From positions 126,276 to 190,275 of the forward strand of contig MU057344.1 of NCBI GenBank assembly GCA_013239625.1: a stretch of 64,000 nt of DNA. The letters run 5' to 3'. The notes beneath the pieces are model-generated. The model saw only the letters and a program-made list of their open reading frames with translations. It made no database searches and was not told the DNA's origin. This DNA comes from Lama guanicoe. Its lineage: Eukaryota. The stretch's first letter is position 1; every line of letters begins with the position of its first letter. Below, piece by piece: positions 1,492 to 61,550 of the stretch. Position numbers and translations under genes: made by a program.

Positions 1492-30789
<29,298 letters not shown>

Positions 30790-33239: not shown

Positions 33240-33960
33240 GCTCCCACCTCCGCCCCTCTGGGGTCTCGTCTGGGGTCCCCCGTGGGACGCGGGGCGGGTG
33301 GGAAATGTTCCGCCCCCTCATCCAGCTCCGAGCCCCTCCTTCAGAATGTGGGGACCACAGCCCCTTCTCCCCGAGAACGGAGGCGGAGCCGGAAAGGTTC
33401 TTGGAAGGAAAGCGCCCACGTGAGCTGAACCGCGCCACTCGGAGCAGGGCCGCCCGGCGCCTTCCCTCTCCGAGCCCGGGACGTCGTGTGACCCCTAGGG
33501 CGCCCTCGGGACCTGCTGCTTTTATTCCGGTCTCCCAGCGTCTTGAGACATGAGGGCGCTGGGCCTTTAAGAGAGATTGGGAGGGGCGGGGCCTCTAGGT
33601 AGGCGTGGCCAGGTGGGCGGAGTGGGCCAGTTGTGGGCGGGGCTCCAATGGGCGGGTCCTCTTTGTGGGCGTGGCCTCCTCGGCCCCGGCCAGAGCTTCC
33701 AGACCGAGCAGACATGACCTCGCGCAGGTGAGCCTGGCCACCCGGTGGCCCGACGCCACGACCCCACGACATGGGCTTAGGGCTGACGGGCGCAGACAGG
33801 GCCGGGACGTCTCCCGCTCCTGACCGGTGGCCTCCAGGCCTGGCCTTCTGACACTCACCCACCTCCAGAGCCAGGGCCACCGGATACCTGTGTCCCGCGC
33901 CAGAGAGGCCTAGCCTCACTCAGGAGGCTGGAAAGGACTCTTTTCGATCGGGGTTACTGG
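33240..33960 (+). promoter_or_regulatory. CpG-island promoter of the SHP-like phosphatase gene
   Basis: CpG-rich. Several GC boxes (GGGGCGGGGC 33583-33592 and others to about 33675), ATTGG 33576-33580 and CCAAT 33645-33649 directly upstream of ATG 33714. Confidence 0.8.
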
Positions 33961-36900
33961 GCCTGGGTCGGGGTCAGAGGTACCCTGACCCTAGGGAACG
34001 GATTGTGTCCTTAGGTGGCAGTGGCTGGAGCCTAGAGTGGGCAGCATGTGTCAGGTCAGAGGCAGACCCTCCCTCTCTCACTCCCCTGGACTCCTTGCCC
34101 TGCTTCAGGCTGCCTTTTGGCCACTAGAGATGTGTTCTGCCTGGCAGGGTATCCCACCTCCTCCAGGCCTGAAACTGAGGGTATCCTGGAGGCTTCAGTC
34201 TCCCCCTCTAGGTGTGGCCCCTGCAAAGACAAGTCCCCCTCCACAGGCTCATCTCCCCCACAACCGCCTAAGGCCAGGCTTAGGAGCAAGCTCCTGGGGT
34301 GTGTGTGAGAGCCAGCTTCTGGCCTCCATGAAGAGGGAAGGTGGGACGTGTGCAGGGAGGGGCACTTTCTGCCCTTTCTACCAGATCCCAGCTCCCCGAG
34401 TGTGTGCACACATGCATGTGAGCTCAGACTCTAGCTGGGCATGGGTGTCAGTGGGGAGCTACTCAGGTGTAAGATGCATGTCACCGCTTCCTGGCACTTG
34501 GCACATCCAGAACACCCCTCTGGGGCTTGATGAGGCTGGATGTCATTGGAGGGGGTCACCCTAAGACCCTGAGTGACTCCCTAGATCAGTGAGGGACTGA
34601 ACAAGGTCTGATCTGCAGGGCCCAAGGCAGTGCCTCAGCTGTGAGGGTCCCAGAATCCTTCCAAGGGTGTGGTGATCCTGGCACAGTGGCCTCTGGCAGG
34701 GTCAAGGGCCCTCTTAGGCTTAGGAATAGTGGAAGTGGGTTGAATCTCTAGGAACTTGTCAGTCCCAGAGCCCTGTGATTCCAAGGTTTAACATCCAGCT
34801 GGAGCTCAGGGAGGAGGGCATTTTGGGGTCTGGTTGGAATGACCCGTCTGGCTCCCCTCAGCCTCACTCTTGCTTGTCTCCTAGGCATCTCTGGTGCTCA
34901 GAAAAAGCCATATCCATGTCATGTGCATGTGACCCTGGGCCAACCTGGGAAAGCCCCGGGTGGGGCTCTGCCTGCCCCTGCCAACCCTCCCTGCCCAAGC
35001 TTGTGATGACCATCTGGACTGTCACTCCTCTGGCCCCTGGGTCTCTGCCCACACCCCTATCAGGCCTGGGCAGGCCCAACCAAATCCCAAGTAAAGCTCA
35101 TCCCCCCATGCCTGCCCCCACCCTCTGGCCCCTTCCTGTAGCCCTGTGGTTTGTGGGTCAGTGTGCACCTCCATCAGCATCACTCACCCAGGACTCTGGT
35201 GCTGTGGGCAGGGCTGGGCATGGTCCTGCCAGAGTGCTGTGGTTTGATGTGTTGATATTGGTGTCTGAGGGAGGAGAGTATAGCTCAGTGGTAGAGTGCC
35301 TACCTAGCATGCACGAGGTCCTGGGTTCAATCCCCAGTACCTCCATCAGAAGTAAATAAATAAAACCTACCCCCCAATAAAATAAAGTAAAAGATATTAG
35401 TGCCTGGGAGGAAGCTGGGTCCACAGGAAGAGGAGGGTACAGCTGAACCCGCTCAGGTTCCCTCTCTGTTCAAAGTTGGAGAGGAAAATGTGTCTCTGAT
35501 TAATCTGGTCCTGCACAGACAGGACAGACGTTGATTGAGTTTCCTCGGAGGAGGGGCTGGGGGACAGGGAGATGGAGAAGGACAGTGACTATGTTCTGGG
35601 GCCCTCAGCCCTGGAATTCCAGCCTGGGACCCTTCTCCACTGGCCTGTGTATCTCCCACCATCACAATGTCTTCCCTACAGGTGTGTCCAGCCCCTGTCC
35701 CATGTGTGCATAAGCATGTTGACAGGCTGCTCACTGGGTCTCCTAGAGTCCCAGGGTTGGAGCAGTGCCATACAGATGGGACACCAAGGCCACAAAGGAA
35801 GCTGGCCAGCGGGTTTAGGCTGATCTCTTAGGTAACCTGGGCTGTCCCTGGGCTCCTGAGCACTGACTGGACTCAGCTGGGCCCAGGCTGTTAGACTTGT
35901 GGAGAGCCCAGTATGCCCTGCTCAGCCCACCTGGCTCTCTCCCGGTTCTGCCTGACCCATGTCACCACAGCAGAGCTGAGTCACTGACCCACCACAGAGC
36001 AGGGACCCCTTCAGCACAGAAATGACTCTGAGCCCTGGGCACAGAGGGGGCGTGGAGATTGGAAATGGGGACCTGCAGCCTCCCTACCTCCTTCCACCCC
36101 TTCAGCCAGGCGCAGCCAGCTGGCCTGCTAGGAACCTGGCTCCTGGTAGTCGGGTGTGTGGGAGGGCAGTGGTGTGAGCTGTTGCACCCTCTCTGGACGT
36201 CCCACCCCTAGAGATTTCCACCTGATAGACCCAGGGGCAGTTTGCGTGGAGGAGAGAGGGATGAAAAGTAGGAATGAGAGTCCTGGAAAGGACATACACT
36301 GTGCCCTTCACCCCTTGCTGTGGCTTTGATGCTGGTCTCCACCCTCTATCCCTGCCCCCACACTCTGGGCATTGCCCACCTTGGACTGGAGTCTGTGGCT
36401 GCTGGGGCCGGGGGAGGGGCAGCCGGGTACAGGATGTGGTTCAGCAGAATAGGTGGACGGGCTTGCGGGGGGGGGGGCGGCCGGAAGCCTTCTTTTTGGT
36501 TCTAGTCCCCCCACCCCCACTGCAGTGTCTCAGACGGCACAAGGCCATCACCCTTTTCCTGGTGGCCTCACCTGCTCTCCTGTGACTGGACCTGGAGGTC
36601 ATTCTGTGGCAGCTCCTGCCCCAGGAAGTCTTCCCTGGCAGCCTCACCTGCCAGACCACTCGACCAAAATTGCCCCCAGGTCTGGGTCCTCCTCCTGTAG
36701 GAGAGAGCTTGAGACCCCAGGCCCCAAACATGCCCAGGAAGTGCCAGGCTGGTAGTACCCCTACTTCCCCCAGGGAGAGTGGGAGTGGGAGCACTGGGCG
36801 GCCCTGGGCACATTGTCTGAGCTTCTGGGCCTCTGTGAACCAATATGTGGACCCTGGGGAGCCACAGAAGTCAGAATGGAGTGTGTCCTCCCCGGGGCTA

Positions 36901-39900
36901 ACGTATAATGGTGACGACACAGGGGACAGGTGAACACAGAAGCATGTACACGCCTATCTGCTGTTAACCAGTGCCACATTTGGAAGGTGGAGCAGTGATG
37001 CAGCTTGACTGGGAAGGACCTCTCAGGAAACAGGCAGGGAGGGAGTATGAGCCATGGCCACAGGGGTAGGTGGGAAGTGGCCAGACGAGGGGAGAGGTCA
37101 GGGAACAGAGATGGAGAACACGGTATTTGCCGTGGTGGTTCTGCCAGGTGTGTCGGTGTCCTGAGAGCCACAGAGGGCCACTGGCGAGGTTTAGGTGGCT
37201 CTGATCTCCATTTTCTGAGAATCCCTCGGTCTGCCATGGCTCGGCTGTAGGGTCAGAGATGAGGCCCAGGGACCTGGAATCAGTACTGTCATCCAGGCAA
37301 GAGCTGATGGGCGCTGGCCCCAGGGTGCTGGGAGAAGTGTTTGGCTGTGGGGTATTTAGAAGGCAGGGCAAGAGGGTGGCGAGGTTGGGAGGGTGCTGGA
37401 GGACTTGCGGGCAGGACCTGAGTGACGGGGAGGTGGTGGCCCCCTTCACAGAGTGAGGACCGTGCAGAAGAACGGGGGCTTGAGGGTGTTATCGGGAGGT
37501 TTGAATGTTGCAGATTTTAAGATAGAGATGCTGGTACCTGTCCAGAGATGCTGAGAAGAGTTGTGTCTGTGAGTCTGAAGTTCAGGCCCAGGCAGGGCTG
37601 GAGTTGAGATGGTGTGTGGATGTGTAGACGTGTGTAGGTCACAGGAGAGGGGCTCTGACATTATAGGGCCAGAAAGAAGAGGAAGAGGACGCCAGTCGGA
37701 TGTGGTGCAAAACCAGGGGAGTTTGCACACTTGAGAACAGCAGAGTGGAGGTCGCACTTCTAGAAGGAGGCATGATCCGCCGCGTCAGATGCTGCTGAGG
37801 ATTGAGGCCTGACCACCGGCCCCAGGAGGCGGGTGAGAACCTGTGAGCCCCAGTCTCAGTGGGGCTGGGGGGCACCAGGATTCAGGGCTGTGGGGACTCA
37901 GGCGAAGATGGGCAGTGCTGACCAACTTTCTGTGGTGGTGGAAATGTTTCCACCACTGCGGTCAACAGTCCCCACCAGCTACAGCAGCTTTCAGCAGTGA
38001 AACGTGGCCCCTGTGACCAAGACTGGGATTGGGATTCTGCTGAATTGTAATCCATTCACGGGCACACCCCACACAAGCCATAGGCTGCGTACTGGGCAGC
38101 GCAACATAGACTGTGCAGGGGGATGGCTCCTTAGAGGTGTTGGACAGGAGCTGAAGTCAGGGCACAGGAGGCCTGAGAACGGGGTGGAGGGAGGAGGGGA
38201 GGGCCCGGAGGGAAGAAAGCGGACAGCTTTTACACAAGAGACGCGATCTGATTCCCATTCCGGAAGGACCTCAGTGGGGCAGCTGTGGGGGCAGAGCAGG
38301 GTCCTCCCGGGGCACAGCAGCCACCCCACTTGTGCCCAGGTTATGACTGCAAACAGCTGGTCGGGGCCTGGGGACGCAAGGCAGTGGAGTTGGAGTTGGA
38401 GGCCTGGTTTCCCTCTGGGTGCAGGACTGGGCAGGACCATCCCCCACACCATGTGTCACTGTGCAGTGAGCTGGGGACACACTTCAACCAGGTGTCCCAA
38501 GCTCCTCCTGCAGTGACCCTTGGTGACCCTGGGGGAGATGGTGTTGCCAGTGAAAGGCCAATTACAGCGCCACAGGGTCATGCTGGGGGATTGCAAAGGG
38601 GTCCGTGCTCTGAGGGGCTCTGGCACTACCACATTAGTGTGATTGAATCAAGGCCCGGAAACTCCTGCCCTAATGGGGAGATGCACTGAGACAGAAAACA
38701 CCACGGCGAAGAAAACAGCAGTTGCAATCTCAGACGTGGGCTCACGTGCAGCCCTGAGCTGTACCCCCATCCCCTTGGGGGCTGTAAAGGACCGTCCCAG
38801 GGTGGGGGTGGGGTTGAGTCCCCTTAGCATGGACGCCCCGCTTGGTCCTCCACCAAGACCTGCCTCAGCCTGAATTGGGCCCTGCAGTCCGCAGGACCCG
38901 CGGTGATCCTCTGGGCCTCCCTGGCCCAGCCCCACGCGCAGCCCAGCCACCAGCCACCTGCTTACCCACCACTCACCACCCATTCAGTAGTCATTTACTT
39001 CTGAATTCAAGCCCAGTTGTTAGCCCGCAGGCACTGTTTAGGGCCCTGGGTACACGCTGCACAGTGTCTGCCCTTGTGGGGCTTCAGTCTCAAGCAGAAG
39101 ACATGCAACAAGCCAATAAATACATAATATACGTCAAAGAGATGACAAATGCTACGAAGGGAAATAAGGCAGAATAAGCATCGAAGAGTGAGGTGATGGG
39201 CCCCCAAGTCACGGGAAGTGGCCGGGAGTGAGGACGGCTGGGGCGGAGGCCCTGAGGTGCGTGGCCTGGTGTGGGTGAAGGGCTAAGGCTGGCAGGTAGG
39301 AAGGGCGAGTGCTGACGGCATGGGAGGTGGTTGTGGGCCCATGGGCTGTTCTCCTGTTCTGGGGGGCTGACCAAGTGACTGACACGATGTGCTAGGGTCC
39401 CTCGGGTGGCCAGGACTGGGAGTGGTGGGGCCGAAAGGGTCTGCCCATGGGCTGTAAGGGATGGGGGACCCTGGGCCTCTCTGGGGCATCCTTGGTGCCT
39501 TTGGCTGAGCTGGGCCGGCGGTGGGTGAGGGAGAGGCCAGGCACAGGAGGTTTGAGCCAGAAGGTTTGAGCTGAGGTGCCTGGTGGCGTCCTGTGGGGGT
39601 GCTGGAGGGGCCCTGTCCTGCCCACCTGCCACTGTGGGAGATTTCCACCCATCTGTGTCCCTGAGACCCCACAGCCCCGCCTCCTTCCCTGTGGGCCTCA
39701 GACCCCGTGGGCACAGCCCAAGGGAGGCAGCAAGCGCAGGGTGGCAGCACGGGCATAGGGGGTGTCTGCCGCTGAGGCCAGGACGAAGAGTGGGTGTGGC
39801 CGGCACTGCCCAGCACCGCCCGCCCTCGGGGGCACCAGCTTGCCGTCCTCATTCCAGGTGGTTTCACCCCCGCGTCAGCGGAGTTGAGGCGGAGAAGCTG

Positions 39901-42900
39901 CTCCTGTCCAGGGGCCAGCACGGGAGCTTCCTGGCAAGACCCAGCAAGAGCTGCCCAGGGGGCTTCACCCTGTCAGTCAGGTGGGTGAGCGCTGCAGCCA
40001 GGTGTGAACCAGCCTGAGACCCCAGGAGACCTCAAGGGGTCCGCACACCCGAAGCTGAGAACACAGCTGGGGATCCGGCTCCCCAGTCCTCCTGGGGTGG
40101 GGGCCCCTGCTGGGGGCTAGACACATGAGATTTTGGTTCTGTGGGACGAATGGTATTCCTGGCCAGGTGGCCTCCAGGAAGGAGGGAACCACTTAGAAAG
40201 GCCTTCGGGGAGGGCTCCGTGAGTGGAGCATCGGCAGGACACCCCCTCCCCAGCTCTCTAAGGGGCCTCCGTGCTCCCATCTCCTGGGGGTGTTGCCCAC
40301 TGCCGCCCACTGTGGGTCTGGCCAGAGCCCATGAAGGGTCCATTGTGTGTGGGAGGATGAGCAGGAGGGGCCACGACCAGCAGAGTGGACAGCCAGGCCC
40401 ATGTCCACCCTGTGGTCTAGGGAGGGGGGCTTCCAAAAGGGCTCAGATTTTTCCAGATTTCTGCTAACACTGAGGCAGCAGGTGGGACTGAGGTCAGCCC
40501 TCAGGATGGATCCCCCACCCTGGAGAGACAGGTGCTCCTCCCCGGGGCTTCCCAGGCCGCACTGTGACACATGGGGGAAGCAGTCTTGAGGGCCAGTCCC
40601 CCATCGTCGGGAGCCCGTGGACAGGTGGTCTGGGCTGACGCAGAGCCTGCCATGGGAGGGTCAGGCCTGGAGTTGGCAAGCGCAGTCTTGGCTGCCCCAC
40701 GGCAGTGGGAGTGGGGTGCCCACCACCCAGGGTGGGGCCTGGACACTGGCTGGACACAGAGCTGCAGTGGAGGGGTCTGGCCTTGGCTATGGCTGTTCCT
40801 GGCAAGGGGACGGCAGAGACTGTGACCTCAGGGCAGGAAAATCCCAGCTACTGTTCTAGAAGCTGAGGGTGGCGATGGGAAGGAGGGTGGTGGGCGGGAC
40901 AGGGCTGCCGATGGTGGCTGGTGCACCGGCCCTTCCAGGCGCCACGATGAGGTGACCCACATCAAGGTTCAGAGCACCGGCGACTACTACGACCTGTATG
41001 GAGGGGAGAAGTTTGCAACGCTGGCCGAGCTGGTGCAGCACTACACAGGCCAGAGTGGGGGGCTGCTCCGGGAGCGCGGCGGGGCCCCCGTCGAGCTCCG
41101 GCACCCACTGGCCTGCCAGGACCCCACGTCGGAACGGTGAGCAACTGGGTCTGTGTCTGGCCCGGCCCCTGTGTCTGTCTGCACACGTGTGCATTCGAGT
41201 TTCTGAGGGAACAGATGGCCTCTGGGCGTCCTCTGCCCCCCAGGGCTCAGGGTCCGTCCTGGGCACGGCAAAGCTGAGGGAGTGTCCTGCACCCCCTCCC
41301 CTGGAGTTCTGGGGGCCTCATTTCTTCCAGGTCCCAGGCTCTGGCCATAGGCGTAGTTCTGCAGCCGATCTCACCCCTGCCCTCCTAGCTGGTGACCTGG
41401 TGAGCGATTCCTCCAGCCCTGGGTTCCCATCCGTGCTGCGGAGGCCTGAGAGCTGCATCTACCAAGGAAGCGGGTGGAGCTGGTCTGTGGAGACCAACTG
41501 CCCCTCCTTACTGAGGACCAGGCTGCCACCTGGTGGTCACTCTGGGGCCCTGCAGAGCCCACTTGTCCTGCCTCCTGCCGGTTTCTAGGTAGGGCAGGGC
41601 AGACTGAGGCTGGCTTGGGCCCCCGACGCCTAGGGTCCTTATAGTGAAGAGGTGTCTCTTTGCCTTCCTCAGTCATCTCTCACTGTGCAGTGATGAGAAC
41701 ACGACCAACCCTTATAACCTGGCCATTTGCTTCACCCCTACACTGATGCCTGTTCTAGAAACACGGGTCAAGTGTCCTGCCAGGCTCACACAAATGAGAT
41801 TGTCCAAACCATCATCATCATCCACCACGAGACTATTTTCCCAGAAGCTGAAGAGCTGGATGGCCCTGTTTATGAGATATGTGCGGCTGGGGATGACTGT
41901 TGTGACAGCCTGCGTCTCTCATGGTGTCTGTGTCTCAAAGCCTTTGGCTACGTATGGGTCTGGGCCCCTGACCTGGCCAGGCGGGGCCCCCAGCCTCACC
42001 TGTGCCACCCTGGGCCAGGTGGTACCACGGGCACCTGTCTGGCAAGGAGGCCGAGAAGCTGCTGATGGAGAAGGGACATCCAGGCAGTTTCCTGGTTCGA
42101 GAGAGTCAGAGCAAACCTGGGGACTTTGTGCTATCAGTACTCACACAGCATCTGGACAAGGCGGACCACCAGCCACGGGTCACCCACATCATGATCCACT
42201 TCCAGGTGGGAGGTGGCAGCTGAGGTGGGGTGTGACTCAGGGGAGGGGGCAGCAGCCAGGCCCCTCACTGCTGCCCCCACAGCCAGATGGGAAGTACAAC
42301 GTGGGAGGAGGGGAGCAGTTCGACACCCTGGGAGATCTGGTGGAATGCTACAAGAAGAACCCCATGGTGGAGAGTTCGGGGGCCGTGGTTCACCTCAGGC
42401 AGGTACGCCCCCGGGCATTTGATCCTTGGGGTCCAGAGTGCGCTTCTCCTCCGGGGGGGAGGCCAAGGTTTGCTGGCACAGCCTCACCCAGGCAAAAGGG
42501 CGCCAGGCAGTGCTGGGACGCTGTCGCTGAGGGGAAGGATACAGGGGACAGGGCACTGTGGGTTCTTCTGGACCCTGCTAAGCTTGGACACGGGTCCCTC
42601 CCTGCCAGCCCCTCAAGGCCACGAGAATCAGCGCTGCAAACATTGAGAGCCGTGTGCAGGAGCTCAGCAAGGCCACCGATGCCAGCGGGAAGGCTAAGCA
42701 GGGCTTCTGGGAGGAGTTCGAGGTGCCTGCCTGCTGCTCATTGCCCCCTCTCAGACTCCCATCCTCTGGGGCTGTGGCAAGGGCCAGCAGAGGAGTGCGG
42801 GTCAAGGGGTGTGAGGTTGGTGTTGAGGGCTCTGGGAAAGGGTCAAGGCTCCGGGCTGAAGCCCCATCTCCCCACCCTCAGATGCTACAGCAGCAGGAAT

Positions 42901-45868
42901 GCCGGCTCCTGTATCCCCGGAAGGAGGGACAGCGGCTGGAGAACAAGCCCAAGAACCGATACAAGAACATCCTTCCCTGTGAGGGCCAGGGGCAGGGGCC
43001 ATGGGGGCCAGGGCTCCACCCACCACATTCGGGGGCCCATCTGGCAGAGGGTCCTTCGTGGGTGGAGGCAGGGTCATTTCCCACCGCTGGTGTGATGCCC
43101 CCTCTTGCCCCTTCATCTCTCGTCTCTGCTTACCACGGGTCAGTGGGCAAGGAGGTAGGTGGGGTCCTCAGGTGTCCCCTTTCTGCTGGAGACCTGAGTG
43201 GCATCTTCCCCTTCCCAGTTGATACCACCCGAGTCATCCTGCGTGACGTGGATGACAGTGTGCCTGGAGCTGACTACATCAACGCCAACTACATCAGGGT
43301 GGATGTGAGTGCGGTGTGGTTGGCCAGCTGCACACTTGGCTCTGCATGAATCAAACGTGGCATCTGAGGCCATGTCTGGCCACATAACAGTCACCTTCTC
43401 CCCCTATTATGAGCCTGGAGCTCCTGCTGGCCCCCAGTGATCTGGGGACTTTGGCACAACAGTAGATATTCAGGGGGAGGGGTGCAGCAGTCCCCAAGGG
43501 GTCCTCAGAGGGGTCCTCTGAGCCTGTACAACTAAATATTGGTCCTGACCCCTCCTTAGCCTAGGGTGGGGCAGACTGTGTGTGTGAGCCACCTGGGCTA
43601 GTTTGCATGTCATTGCATCACCTTGCACTTAGCCTCTGGCACTTTAATTCCTGGAAACAGCAGGCAGCTGACCCCACCTCCTTTCAGAGTGACCCAGAAG
43701 AGAAGCCAGGCCATGGACTGGGCAAGGTGTACATCGCCACTCAGGGCTGTCTGCAGACCACGGTGGCTGCCTTCTGGGCCATGGTGTACCAGGAGAACAC
43801 ACGTGTCATTGTCATGACCACCAGGGAGGTGGAGCGAGGCCGGGTAGGGGCTCAGCCTCATGTCCCCCCCTCCTCCCACCCCCACCCCTTGTGTAGGGAG
43901 CAGGGAGGGCCCTGGACAGACCCGCATATGCCCCACAGGGCTGAGGGGCAAGGATGCTGGTGGTCTTCCAGCACGGCTGATGCAATGCACCCACTCCCCC
44001 AGAACAAGTGTTTCCGATACTGGCCAGAGCTGCATGGCAGCCAAGACTATGGCCGCCTGCACGTGTGCAATGCAGCTGAGTACCAGGCCCAGGGTTACTG
44101 TGTGCGGGAGCTGCAGGTGTGGCGGCCAGACCAGGTGAGCCTGGAGGGCACAGGAGGTGTGGGGCCAGAGTCAGAGTGGTCAGGAAGTCCCCAGGTCTGC
44201 ACTGGGGTGAGGAGGCCCTATGCTGGCCCTGCCTCCACCCAACCCTGCTGGCCCTGGTGGCTTCCATATCCCTCAACCCAGTGGGCACAGTCCTGGCCTG
44301 GGCTCTTCTGGACAGTGTTCCCAGATGGGCACGTTCTCAACCCCAGTTGCCTGGCTCCAGAGTGGCCTCACACCCACATTGGCCTCTCCCTCCGGTCTTT
44401 CCCTGGACCATCTCAGCACCTGTGGCCTCCTTTATATGCCAGTGGTGCCTATTTCTACCCCAGGCACAGATCCCTCCCCACTAGTCCCCTGTGTAACCAC
44501 CTGGGGGGCGTCCTGCATGCCCTCTTCATTTGGCCCTTCCCAAAAATAACTCAGAGTCCAGAAACCTGCTCCCTCCTGCGGATGATCTGTCTTCCCTTCC
44601 TCAGGCACCCAAGCCACCTGGGGCTACCTGGGGTCACCTTGGGCCACCTGAGCCACCTGGGGCCACCTGGGGCCACCTGGGCCTGATGGCCCATCTTTTC
44701 CTACCACTCCCTCCTGCTCAGTCTGGGCCCGGCTGGTCACTCCTTGGGAAACCCCGCTAAGCCACGGCCTGCCTCCCTCCAGTCCCTCTTCGTTCCCTGC
44801 GTGTCTCCCACCGCGACGGTCACAGAAGCAACACTGAGGCCCGGCCAGTCTGGGACCCTCCCAGACCAGCCAGGCTGAAGCTCACCATCCTGCCCTGCCT
44901 AGGAGAGGTCGGCGCGCACAGTGAAGCACTATCAGTACTTCAGCTGGCCGGACCACGGGGTCCCGGCCGAGCCCGCCGGCGTCCTCGGCTTCCTGGACGA
45001 GGTGAACCGGGCCCAGAGCAGCATGCCGGGGGCCGGACCTATGGTGGTGCACTGCAGGTGCGATCGGGACGGGGAGGGGCGGGGCCAGCGGCTCAGGTGC
45101 GACCAGGGAAGGTGCCCGCGGCTTTGTCCTGTCAGCTGGTCACAAGCTTCCTGGTCCGTCCCCACAGCGCGGGCATCGGACGCACTGGCACCATCATTGT
45201 GATTGACATCCTGGTGGACTTCATTCGCAAGCAGGGTGAGCCGCCCCTGGCTGGCTGGCCCGCCCTGCCGACCCCGCCCCCTTCATCTCGCCCTCCCACC
45301 CCTCCCTACCGGCCCCGCCCCGCCCTGCCCTGAGCGCGCTCGTCCCCAGGGCTGGACTGCGACATTGACGTCCCCAAGACGATCCAGCTGGTGCGGCGAC
45401 AGCGCTCGGGGATGGTGCAGACCGAGGCGCAGTACAAGTTCGTGTACCTAGCGCTGCGGCGGTACATCCAGGGCGAGCAGCTGCGCCTGAGCGAGCAGGC
45501 TGCGGCGGGGCCGGGCCGGGGCGGCGCCTGCGCGGGCATCACCATGGTGACCAGTGGGCCCGCCCCTCAGCGCGAGCGGCCGGAGGAGCGCGACTCTCTG
45601 AGTGTGGGCGCCTCGCCCGCTGACCCTGGCTGGAGCCCCGGGCCCGCGCCGTCCCAGGCGCCGGCGGCGTGAGTAGGGCGTAGGGCACCGGAGCGGGCGG
45701 TGACCGGGCCGGGAGCAGGGGGGCCTCGGGGGCGGGCCCCGAGTGGGGGCGTGGCCCGGGCGAGGGGGCGTGGCCGCGCGTGGGCCCCCGCGGAACCCGG
45801 TCTCCTCTCGCAGGACTCCAGAGGCCTCTGGCCGCGTGTGTGAGAGCCTGCAGGGCCTCGGGAGATGA
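33714..45868 (+). CDS. SH2-SH2-PTP tyrosine phosphatase, PTPN11/SHP2-like paralog (third SHP family member), 15 coding exons, about 581 aa
   Basis: Exons: 33714-33727 (MTSRR), 39858-39980, 40939-41136, 42019-42205, 42283-42402, 42609-42722, 42882-42978, 43219-43298, 43688-43843, 44003-44134, 44903-45057, 45168-45235, 45350-45498, 45571-45668, 45814-45868 (TGA). Sum 1746 nt with no internal stop. N-SH2 WFHP...FLARPS, C-SH2 WYHG...FLVRES. PTP motifs [52 protein letters not shown]. The intron-13 donor is non-GT. Confidence 0.9.
35269..35392 (+). mobile_element. tRNA-derived SINE (camelid Vic-type) in intron 1 of the SHP-like gene
   Basis: A box TAGCTCAGTGG, B box GGTTCAATCC, A-rich tail. Imperfect target-site duplication GATATTGGTGTCTGAG (35254-35269) / GATATTAGTGCCTGGG (35393-35408). 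Confidence 0.9.
37913..38102. mobile_element. MER3-like non-autonomous hAT DNA transposon
   Basis: cagtgctgaccaa...tactgggcagcgc terminal inverted-repeat remnants and the internal actttctgtggtggtggaaatgtt motif. Confidence 0.55.
38975..39200 (-). mobile_element. L2 LINE 3' fragment
   Basis: attcagtagtcattta...caggcactgtttagggccctggg...tgcccttgtggggcttcagtct resembles the antisense L2 3' end. Confidence 0.55.
41634..41910 (+). pseudogene. Intronless SRGAP1-derived fragment (RhoGAP C-terminal part) in intron 3 of the SHP-like gene
   Basis: Translates to [42 protein letters not shown], then after a frameshift [48 protein letters not shown]. This matches recalled SRGAP1 ([32 protein letters not shown]...[19 protein letters not shown]). 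AT content is higher than the flanks. Confidence 0.85.
44613..44681. repeat. 10-bp minisatellite (GCCACCTGGG)x~7
   Basis: Directly visible tandem array in intron 10 of the SHP-like gene. Confidence 0.85.
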
Positions 45869-46150
45869 GGGCCCCGCGTGCGCACGCCCCGAGTGAGGTT
45901 GGAACCGCGAGGAGGCAGCGCCCAGCCAGGCCGGCCCCCTCATTCCTCGAAAGGACTGTGTTTAGGACAGTGCAGACTGGAGCTCATCCCGGAGCGCGGG
46001 GGAAGGGGTCCCGGGTCTGCCGCTCAGACCCTCCCTGACCAGGCCTGCACGCCCAGAGATGGGAAGGGCGGTCGATTGATCCGGTGTCACCGCCTCTCCT
46101 GGGGCTCCCAGGGGAAGGTGGAGGAGGGGCGGCAGGGCTGCGGTTTGTCT
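44900..46150. promoter_or_regulatory. 3' CpG island over exons 11-15 of the SHP-like gene
   Basis: Very high CpG and GC-box density in both exons and introns. Confidence 0.65.
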
Positions 46151-47440: not shown

Positions 47441-47446
47441 TTTATT
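47441..47446 (-). terminator. RNF223 polyadenylation signal
   Basis: TTTATT on + (AATAAA on -), about 525 nt beyond the RNF223 stop. Confidence 0.75.
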
Positions 47447-47970
47447 TAAAAATGTACAGTTCACCAGGTGGGATGAGCACTGAGGGACTGGGCTCCCTGC
47501 CACTTCCCTCTGTCCCCCTGGTCACCCAAGGAAGGGGCCAGCCCTGCCTGGGGAAGGACTCTGGGGAGGGAGCCATGGGTGAAATGTGCATATGAAATAA
47601 GGATGGCAAGTCCTCTCCCTTTTCAGCAAAGGGGCTGTGCCTGCAGACGATTCAGTGTATAGGGAGGGTCCCCACCAAGCTGCTGCTCCTGGGCCTCAGT
47701 GTCCCCACCTGCATAATGGGAGTTATGGGGGTGGCCTCTGGGGTCCATAGGAATCTCTGATTCTTGGAAGCTCAGGGGAACTTTTTGTCCACCCCATAGG
47801 ACCGGGCCCCAGAGAGTCAGGGGCAGGTGAGCCAAATGGGGGTGTGGGTGCCTCAGAGATACTGGGGCTCCTCTGGGATCCCAGGGCTGGACCCCAGCCA
47901 GCTGCTACATCCCATGACCCCAGCTGTGGGCTGGGCAGCCACACCTGGAACTGGGGTGGCGGTGATGACC

Positions 47971-48804
<834 letters not shown>

Positions 48805-53699: not shown

Positions 53700-61550
<7,851 letters not shown>

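What the first reader, a model, noticed from the sequence alone, without database searches (positions are those of the whole stretch)
45571..45868. Both C-terminal pY-x-N (Grb2-type) motifs of the SHP paralog are doubly erased
Seen: counting from the conserved exon junctions, the SHP2 Y542 motif (EYTN) aligns to DSLS (gac tct ctg agt, 45592-45603) and the Y580 motif (RVYENV) aligns to RVCESL (gtg tgt gag agc, 45836-45847). Each Tyr and each +2 Asn is one base change from TAT or AAT/AAC, and the tail contains no tyrosine. Known: these tyrosines recruit Grb2 and tune SHP2 activity. Inference: a catalytically competent SHP without the adaptor function, from either selection or early decay.
Basis: partly seen in the sequence, partly recalled or inferred. 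Interest (0 to 1): 0.7.

Follow-up and report, generated by a model that had tools for sequence, protein, structure and literature searches.

The report
Third SHP phosphatase lacking Grb2 tail
Camels and llamas keep an intact copy of a third SHP signalling enzyme gene, reported as lost in mammals, whose tail has lost both tyrosine docking sites for the adaptor Grb2; cats and polar bear show the same double loss separately, likely because the tail stopped being needed while the enzyme core is still conserved.

Summary
The window carries an intact 15-exon SHP gene beside AGRN. In exact codon register with this genome's own SHP2 and SHP1, EYTN reads DSLS and VYENV reads VCESL, each codon one base from Tyr or Asn. 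Contigs of two DNA runs match letter for letter.

The gene is the ortholog of fish ptpn11b (SHP3), published as lost in mammals but intact in many. The window is a South American camelid.

The erasure was stepwise and is not unique. Both motifs stand in 15 of 15 non-placental rows. Site-1 Tyr is missing in all cetartiodactyls, site-2 Tyr in camelids, site-2 Asn only in the window's lineage. Felids and polar bear lost both separately.

Catalytic, SH2 and autoinhibition residues are intact. The core shows 9 changes against Camelus where 30-39 would be neutral, so this is not a dead gene. Best reading: relaxed constraint plus GC-biased drift on a dispensable adaptor tail.

Two caveats. The exon-13 donor is a weak GC and is probably retained in frame. 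The alpaca RefSeq model ends in a distal exon (59363-59426) with a new YFNV motif, untested by reads.

The parts
33714..33727 (+). Exon 1 (ATG; MTSR), behind a GC-rich promoter-like stretch
   Evidence: same N-terminus as P0001 and SHP2
39858..41136 (+). Exons 2-3 (39858-39980, 40939-41136): N-SH2 with R32, D61, A72, E76
42019..42402 (+). Exons 4-5 (42019-42205, 42283-42402): C-SH2 with R139 (SHP2 R138)
42609..44134 (+). Exons 6-10 (42609-42722, 42882-42978, 43219-43298 or -43304, 43688-43843, 44003-44134): linker and first half of the PTP domain, pTyr loop KNRY
44903..45235 (+). Exons 11-12 (44903-45057, 45168-45235): WPD loop and HCSAGIGR; catalytic Cys codon 45053-45055
45350..45498 (+). 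Exon 13: Q loop and last helix; last Tyr of the proximal isoforms (Y520)
45499..45570 (+). Intron 13, 72 nt, open and in frame; donor GC with no consensus match at +3..+6; likely retained
   Evidence: retained in 6 of 6 camelid models that reach it; letters matched by DNA runs
45571..45668 (+). Exon 14; site 1 (SHP2 Y542 equivalent) DSLS at 45592-45603
45814..45868 (+). Exon 15 coding part to stop; site 2 (SHP2 Y580 equivalent) VCES at 45836-45847
   Evidence: joint 45668-45814 seen in one contig of RNA run X15, a related camelid
59363..59426 (+). Distal alternative last exon used by the alpaca RefSeq model P0155; encodes YQPG and YFNV (a new YxN); AATAAA at 60217
   Evidence: no read evidence obtained
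30610..30789 (+). Last coding stretch of the upstream gene (agrin; name recalled from the laminin-G/EGF peptides): synteny marker
   Evidence: translation; (AGRIN flanks SHP3); dog ortholog P0173 is filed by one source as an agrin isoform

Best explanation
This is an intact camelid SHP3 (ptpn11b-type) gene whose tail lacks both YxN motifs; it likely encodes a working SH2-SH2 phosphatase that is predicted to be unable to dock Grb2 through tail phosphotyrosines, and the motifs were likely lost by relaxed constraint and GC-biased drift rather than by selection for loss. Shown: open frame, key residues, motif states across species, few core changes. Inferred mechanism: like SHP2, the protein would be held closed by N-SH2 on the active site, be opened by pTyr docking sites on receptors or scaffolds, and act through its PTP domain (dephosphorylation, and possibly direct SOS1 binding as reported for SHP2). 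The tail-to-Grb2 route would be left to SHP2, which keeps both motifs in this genome. Inferred order: site-1 Tyr to Ser in the cetartiodactyl ancestor; site-1 Asn to Ser and site-2 Tyr to Cys in the camelid ancestor; site-2 Asn to Ser in the South American branch. Each Asn decayed only after its Tyr had gone.
For: Intact 15-exon frame, 581 aa, intron phases as in own SHP2 and SHP1. SH2 arginines, D61/A72/E76, Y279, WPD, C459, R465, Q506 all present. Core 9 of 531 aa differ from C. ferus against 30-39 expected at the local non-coding divergence (ratio 0.23-0.30, Poisson P below 1e-5); tail 2 of 50 against about 3 expected. Both motifs in 15 of 15 non-placental rows but 12 of 34 placental rows. 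Pig, hippo and ruminants have SLN, whales SLK, camelids SLS; Camelus models CEN, window CES; felid models have HLN and end at the site-2 Tyr position while hyena and meerkat keep both; polar bear has SPN and EDEN. Placental SHP3 is shifted to GC-rich-codon residues (GARP/FYMINK 1.3-1.7 against 0.7-1.0), and the window tail has 0 FYMINK residues in 50. Literature passages: Shp2b is dispensable in zebrafish yet rescues Shp2 loss (PMC3988099); Shp2a-Y542F/Y580F rescues fin regeneration (PMC5789028); tail tyrosines are dispensable in some receptor pathways and the PTP domain binds SOS1 (10.64898/2026.06.12.731952).
Against: No RNA evidence from the window's own species group, and none for exons 1-13: RNA contigs covered only 45640 onward, came from a camelid about 3% diverged, and may include DNA. 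The neutral rate rests on 1077 non-coding bases from one run set against a protein model of another record, so the ratio is rough. The SOS1-interface residues are active-site loops also kept in SHP1, so they do not show SOS1 binding. At least three double losses are also what selection for loss would give. The alpaca model ends in a YxN-bearing exon. In mouse SHP2 the same two tyrosines are essential (Shp2-YF embryos die around E12.5; 10.1101/2024.10.20.619055), so dispensability holds only while SHP2 covers. The polar bear model has a garbled stretch at 285-290 and may be a decaying or mis-annotated gene.
Confidence: 0.65

Rival explanations
1. Early decay: the whole gene is on its way to the pseudogene state reached in primates, and the tail is the first part to show it.
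For: Human pseudogene reported (PMC3296744); squirrel monkey model is frameshifted; long placental stem branch, 0.33 against 0.068 for the marsupial tip; degraded exon-13 donor; 57 of 157 placental-type models have non-standard ends; several cattle models run out of frame through intron 12.
Against: Core changes are about a quarter of neutral expectation within camelids. Catalytic positions are unchanged in all placental rows that cover them. Site 1 was lost before camels, pigs, cattle and whales split, and their frames are still open.
Confidence: 0.13
2. Selection removed the Grb2 docking sites to make a phosphatase-only or competing SHP that occupies SHP2 docking sites without recruiting Grb2-SOS.
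For: Separate double losses in camelids, felids and polar bear; single losses in cetartiodactyls and seals; core stays constrained while the motifs go.
Against: Losses are spread over deep and shallow branches and are single-base changes in the direction of the gene-wide GC shift. The whole tail, not only the motifs, diverges 2-4 times faster than the core in most placental pairs. Horse, rhino, dog, hyena, bats, pangolin and treeshrew keep both motifs.
Confidence: 0.1
3. Compensation: South American camelids splice to a newly recruited distal exon (59363-59426) that restores one Grb2-type motif (YFNV), so the adaptor function is not fully lost.
For: The only full-length alpaca model in hand uses it (P0155). 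Good acceptor and downstream AATAAA. Only 5 of 772 YAG sites downstream give a YxN in this phase. The proximal exon matches orthologs far better, so protein homology alone would hardly pick the distal one (inference). The last Asn loss is confined to this lineage.
Against: One annotation model, which also has an odd exon 8/9 junction. The intron would be 13.7 kb and cross two opposite-strand genes. The proximal acceptor is intact. Odd ends are common, and 1 of 57 has a new YxN. The sequence overlaps a low-copy repeat-like stretch (3 other places at 71-79%). No reads could be laid.
Confidence: 0.1

Closest known systems
SHP3 / zebrafish ptpn11b (Shp2b) (PMC3296744, PMC3670263, PMC3988099)
   Same: Next to AGRN, same domain order, nests with fish ptpn11b-named proteins and their tetrapod relatives in a tree that broadly follows species relationships
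   Different: Both papers on SHP3 state loss in mammals, but this copy is intact. Fish, amphibian, sauropsid, platypus and marsupial SHP3 keep both YxN motifs; the camelid copy has neither.
SHP2 (PTPN11)
   Same: 65% identical core (183 of 528 differ), same intron phases, same catalytic, SH2 and autoinhibitory residues
   Different: Separate locus in this genome (contig C6178). It keeps EYTN and VYENV. K364 is R in all SHP3 rows that cover it.
Engineered SHP2-Y542F/Y580F
   Same: No tail phosphotyrosine for Grb2 SH2, core intact
   Different: Natural, in a paralog, on a background with wild-type SHP2; Asn residues and the surrounding tail are also changed
SHP1 (PTPN6)
   Same: 60% identical core; own copy has EYGN and VYEN in the same register
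   Different: Separate locus (contig C2396), longer basic tail, no GC-rich-codon shift although GC3 is the same 0.81
RefSeq/UniRef 'PTPN11-like' models of laurasiatherian mammals
   Same: Direct orthologs; P0155 differs at 4 and P0001 at 9 of 531 core positions
   Different: Automatic annotations. My six searches found no paper describing the mammalian gene or its tail.

Membership tests
SHP family (PTPN6/PTPN11 type) | Two SH2 domains followed by a classical PTP domain | tested here: met
   Pfam SH2 x2 and Y_phosphatase on P0001 and P0155; window model differs from these at 9 and 4 core positions; PDB SHP2 best match
SHP family (PTPN6/PTPN11 type) | Catalytic motifs KNRY, WPD, HCSAGIGR, Q loop; SH2 arginines; N-SH2/PTP interface residues | tested here: met
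SHP family (PTPN6/PTPN11 type) | Phosphatase activity and pTyr-relieved autoinhibition | not testable with these tools
   Inferred from residues; Shp2b activity reported in PMC3988099
SHP family (PTPN6/PTPN11 type) | C-terminal tyrosines in YxN context (usual, not family-defining) | tested here: not met
   only the distal-exon model has one
SHP3 / ptpn11b clade | Synteny with AGRN (and HES4) | tested here: met
   Agrin-type exons end about 3 kb upstream (name recalled). HES4 not looked for.
SHP3 / ptpn11b clade | Groups with fish ptpn11b and non-mammalian SHP3 rather than SHP1 or SHP2 | tested here: met
   Tree of 32 of 51 aligned rows: amniote 100/99, mammal 97/87, therian 97/96, placental 100/100. 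The basal fork against SHP1+SHP2 is open (62% of bootstrap trees), with one SHP1 and one SHP2 row only. Own PTPN11 and PTPN6 exist elsewhere.
SHP3 / ptpn11b clade | Conserved SHP splice structure | tested here: met
   15 exons with phases as in own SHP2 and SHP1; exon-13 donor degraded
Grb2-SH2 ligand (pY-x-N-x) | Tyr with Asn at +2 | tested here: not met
   DSLS and CESL; consensus from the search listing of PMC3787023. Met only by YFNV in the distal exon.
Unitary pseudogene | Frame-breaking lesion or neutral evolution of the coding sequence | tested here: not met
   No stop or frameshift; core ratio 0.23-0.30. Expression of the full gene not shown.

The most novel reading that the evidence does not exclude
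Many mammals keep a third, expressed SHP phosphatase that has repeatedly shed its Grb2 tail (camelids, cats, polar bear), and South American camelids have regained a Grb2-type YxN motif by recruiting a new last exon 13.7 kb downstream.
Probability: 0.08. Interest if true: 0.75.

Novelty: new variant of a known kind. Interest (0 to 1): 0.42.

Why it matters
SHP3 is in print as lost along the mammalian lineage, and zebrafish ptpn11b is presented as a likely teleost duplicate. The data here show one ancient gene, intact and constrained in camelids and annotated in many other mammals, including livestock and pets. Its tail motifs are fixed in every non-placental row yet lost several times in placentals, while the same two tyrosines are essential in mouse SHP2. 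That gives a natural series (both sites, one site, none) for the adaptor-versus-PTP-domain question, and a possible SHP2-redundant gene in non-rodent, non-primate models. The limit: engineered Y542F/Y580F mutants already address the mechanism, the gene is already in automatic annotations, and the loss looks like drift.

Tried and rejected
Assembly error: rejected. Misalignment of the tail: rejected by codon register against own SHP2 and SHP1. Recent SHP2 duplicate or retrocopy: rejected (introns, 65% identity, tree). One-step or window-specific double erasure: rejected.

(search for SHP2 orthologs) was sent in the wrong frame and gave nothing usable, so the tree has only this genome's SHP1 and SHP2. 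laid nothing, so exons 1-12 have no read evidence. (search with the distal-exon frame) met a full queue and did not run. Missing RNA cover of 45340-45640 is not taken as evidence.

Rows corrected after the automatic tally, which lists 9 of 34 placental rows with neither motif. Pig P0020 lacks exon 15, but P0256 has YEN. Colugo P0055 has a different tail and is undecided. The alpaca row's site-2 'Y.N' is the distal exon, not the ancestral site. Seven rows remain: window, two Camelus, three felids, polar bear.

Literature searches for a description of mammalian SHP3 or its tail found only the two 'lost in mammals' papers; the library lacks most subscription journals. No structure or complex was predicted: the core is 65% identical to solved SHP2 and the tail is likely disordered. 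Earlier scan notes: nothing.

Full report
Gene and organism. Six-frame reading and boundary fitting give a 15-exon gene on the + strand from 33714 to 45868, open for 581 codons, starting MTSRRWFHP. It lies about 3 kb behind the last exon of agrin (name recalled from its laminin-G/EGF peptides) and ahead of an opposite-strand RING gene (Pfam; RNF223, name recalled). The nearest records are camelid 'PTPN11-like' models: 4 of 531 core differences to alpaca P0155 and 9 to Camelus ferus P0001. The window is therefore a South American camelid. This genome's real PTPN11 and PTPN6 lie on other contigs; I rebuilt exons 2-15 of each.

The observation. Own SHP2 has Tyr at codon 9 of exon 14 and at the 9th full codon of exon 15. 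The window has TCT and TGT there, and AGT and AGC at the +2 positions. Alignment puts SHP2 Y542, N544, Y580, N582 on S540, S542, C573, S575. Contigs of DNA runs X2 and X12, from two studies, show no other letter from 45340 to 46100 (4 of 24 listed runs were laid). Contigs drop rare variants, so polymorphism is not excluded, but assembly error is.

What the gene is. PMC3296744 (passages) names a third SHP clade, SHP3, syntenic with HES4 and AGRIN, finds a pseudogene in mammals and infers loss along the mammalian lineage; PMC3670263 (one passage) repeats this. Its File S4, which marks C-terminal tyrosines, is a figure I did not see. PMC3988099 (passages) describes zebrafish Shp2b as 64% like human SHP2, active, dispensable and able to rescue Shp2 loss, and points to the teleost duplication. 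That shp3 and ptpn11b are the same gene is my inference. It fits proteins named ptpn11b in bichir and sturgeon. In a tree of 32 of my 51 aligned rows, the window nests in starred placental, therian, mammal and amniote groups beside amphibian, lungfish and fish ptpn11b rows; the fork to SHP1 and SHP2 is open. Full-length models exist for artiodactyls, whales, horses, rhinos, carnivores, pangolins, bats, treeshrew, colugo, marsupials and platypus. The squirrel monkey model is frameshifted. No rodent, catarrhine, afrotherian or xenarthran ortholog was among the top 120 of either search; that is not proof of absence.

History of the motifs. Both YxN motifs stand in 15 of 15 non-placental rows and 12 of 34 placental rows (corrections under Tried and rejected). 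Site 1 reads DSLN in pig and hippo, GSLN in ruminants, DSLK in whales and DSLS in camelids, so the Tyr went in the cetartiodactyl ancestor and the Asn later, twice. Site 2 is YEN in pig, ruminants and whales, CEN in both Camelus species with a model reaching it, and CES in the window. RNA contigs of runs X15 and X17, about 3% diverged from the window, carry 45846 G>A, that is CEN. Felid models have HLN at site 1 and most end exactly where the site-2 Tyr would stand (probably Tyr to stop; not checked in DNA), whereas hyena and meerkat keep both. Polar bear has SPN and EDEN; seals and walrus lost site 1 only. A third tail Tyr present in 13 of 15 non-placental rows is absent from 34 of 34 placental rows.

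Decay or constraint. Catalytic, SH2 and autoinhibition positions are unchanged. With the local non-coding divergence (24 of 932, or 34 of 1077 with intron 14), 30-39 amino-acid changes would be expected in the core between the window and Camelus; 9 are seen. The tail shows 2 where about 3 are expected, too few to test. This is a rough estimate, not a codon model. Constraint is nonetheless looser than outside placentals: the placental stem branch is 0.33 long, and the window differs at 30 of 329 core columns invariant in non-placental SHP3. The protein has moved toward residues with GC-rich codons, core Asn falls from 20-32 to 10-15, and the window tail has no F, Y, M, I, N or K at all. All four motif changes are A to C or G. 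The window sits 126-190 kb from its contig's start in GC-rich DNA, and the tail exons lie in a CpG island. GC-biased gene conversion is my inferred driver; it was not measured.

Splicing of the tail. The exon-13 donor is CAG|gctgcg. Bactrian models read EQT there, and pig EQE, which imply donors that are not GT either; camelid and pig models and most ruminant models retain the short in-frame intron. The likely camelid product is 605-607 aa, still without tail Tyr. The joint 45668-45814 appears in one 59-nt contig of X15, next to an unspliced contig of greater depth that may be DNA. The alpaca model P0155 instead ends in an exon at 59363-59426 with YFNV. By chance 5 of 772 downstream YAG sites would give a YxN, but 57 of 157 placental-type models have irregular ends and this is the only one with a new YxN. 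I could not test it with reads; it is the main open point.

How it likely works. Grb2 SH2 needs pY-x-N (search listing of PMC3787023), so the proximal isoforms cannot dock it by the tail. In SHP2 the two tyrosines matter by context: Y542F/Y580F rescues zebrafish fin regeneration (PMC5789028, passages) but kills mouse embryos through placental defects and hits PDGF more than FGF signalling (10.1101/2024.10.20.619055, passages). A preprint reports direct binding of the SHP2 PTP domain to SOS1 (10.64898/2026.06.12.731952, passages). Eight of the nine interface residues it names are identical here and K364 is Arg, but SHP1 keeps them nearly as well. Another reports phosphorylation-independent Grb2 binding to N-SH2 and PTP (10.1101/859108, passages). 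So loss of the tail motifs removes one route, not all adaptor behaviour. With SHP2 intact, a partly redundant SHP3 can lose that route by drift while its core is kept.

Verdict. A real feature, correctly seen. It is a new variant of a known, neglected SHP family member rather than a new system. The wider point, that SHP3 survives in many mammals and sheds its tail motifs repeatedly, was not found in print by my six searches, although the gene is in automatic annotations. Interest 0.42.

Noticed in passing
window 45499-45570: Intron 13 is a multiple of three and free of stops in many placental models, and its translation is much alike from squirrel monkey to camel. It may be constrained as a regulatory element in the CpG island or as a retained segment.
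   Followed up: partly
window 43298 and 43304: Two donors 6 nt apart at the end of exon 8; the downstream one (gtgagt) adds Val-Asp and is used by C. ferus model P0001.
   Followed up: partly
window intron 3 (41137-42018): Frames hold a broken peptide that reads like a RhoGAP (SRGAP-type) fragment, possibly a retrocopy; the resemblance is recalled and untested.
   Followed up: no
window 45460-45470: A second donor inside exon 13 (CG|gtacat). Sheep and buffalo models join the matching point straight to exon 15 in frame (P0258, P0261), skipping exon 14.
   Followed up: no
window 47441-48804 (-): Single-exon RING-finger gene with a C-terminal hydrophobic stretch (RNF223, name recalled), tail to tail with the SHP gene; no canonical AATAAA on the + strand before 49068.
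   Followed up: partly
window 53700-57900 (-): Exons of a further opposite-strand gene (C1orf159-like, name recalled); the distal SHP exon lies beyond these exons on the other strand.
   Followed up: no
P0173 (dog ortholog): One source files this SHP3 protein as 'agrin isoform X15', which suggests AGRN-SHP3 read-through transcripts or merged annotation.
   Followed up: no
P0199, P0202, P0205, P0208, P0212 (Bos models): Several cattle, yak and banteng isoforms run through intron 12 out of frame after the catalytic motif, while P0009 is in frame; the status of the gene in Bos deserves a check.
   Followed up: no
window 45640: Two RNA contigs of run X15 both begin at 45640 inside exon 14: GC-rich dropout or an internal start in the CpG island.
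   Followed up: no
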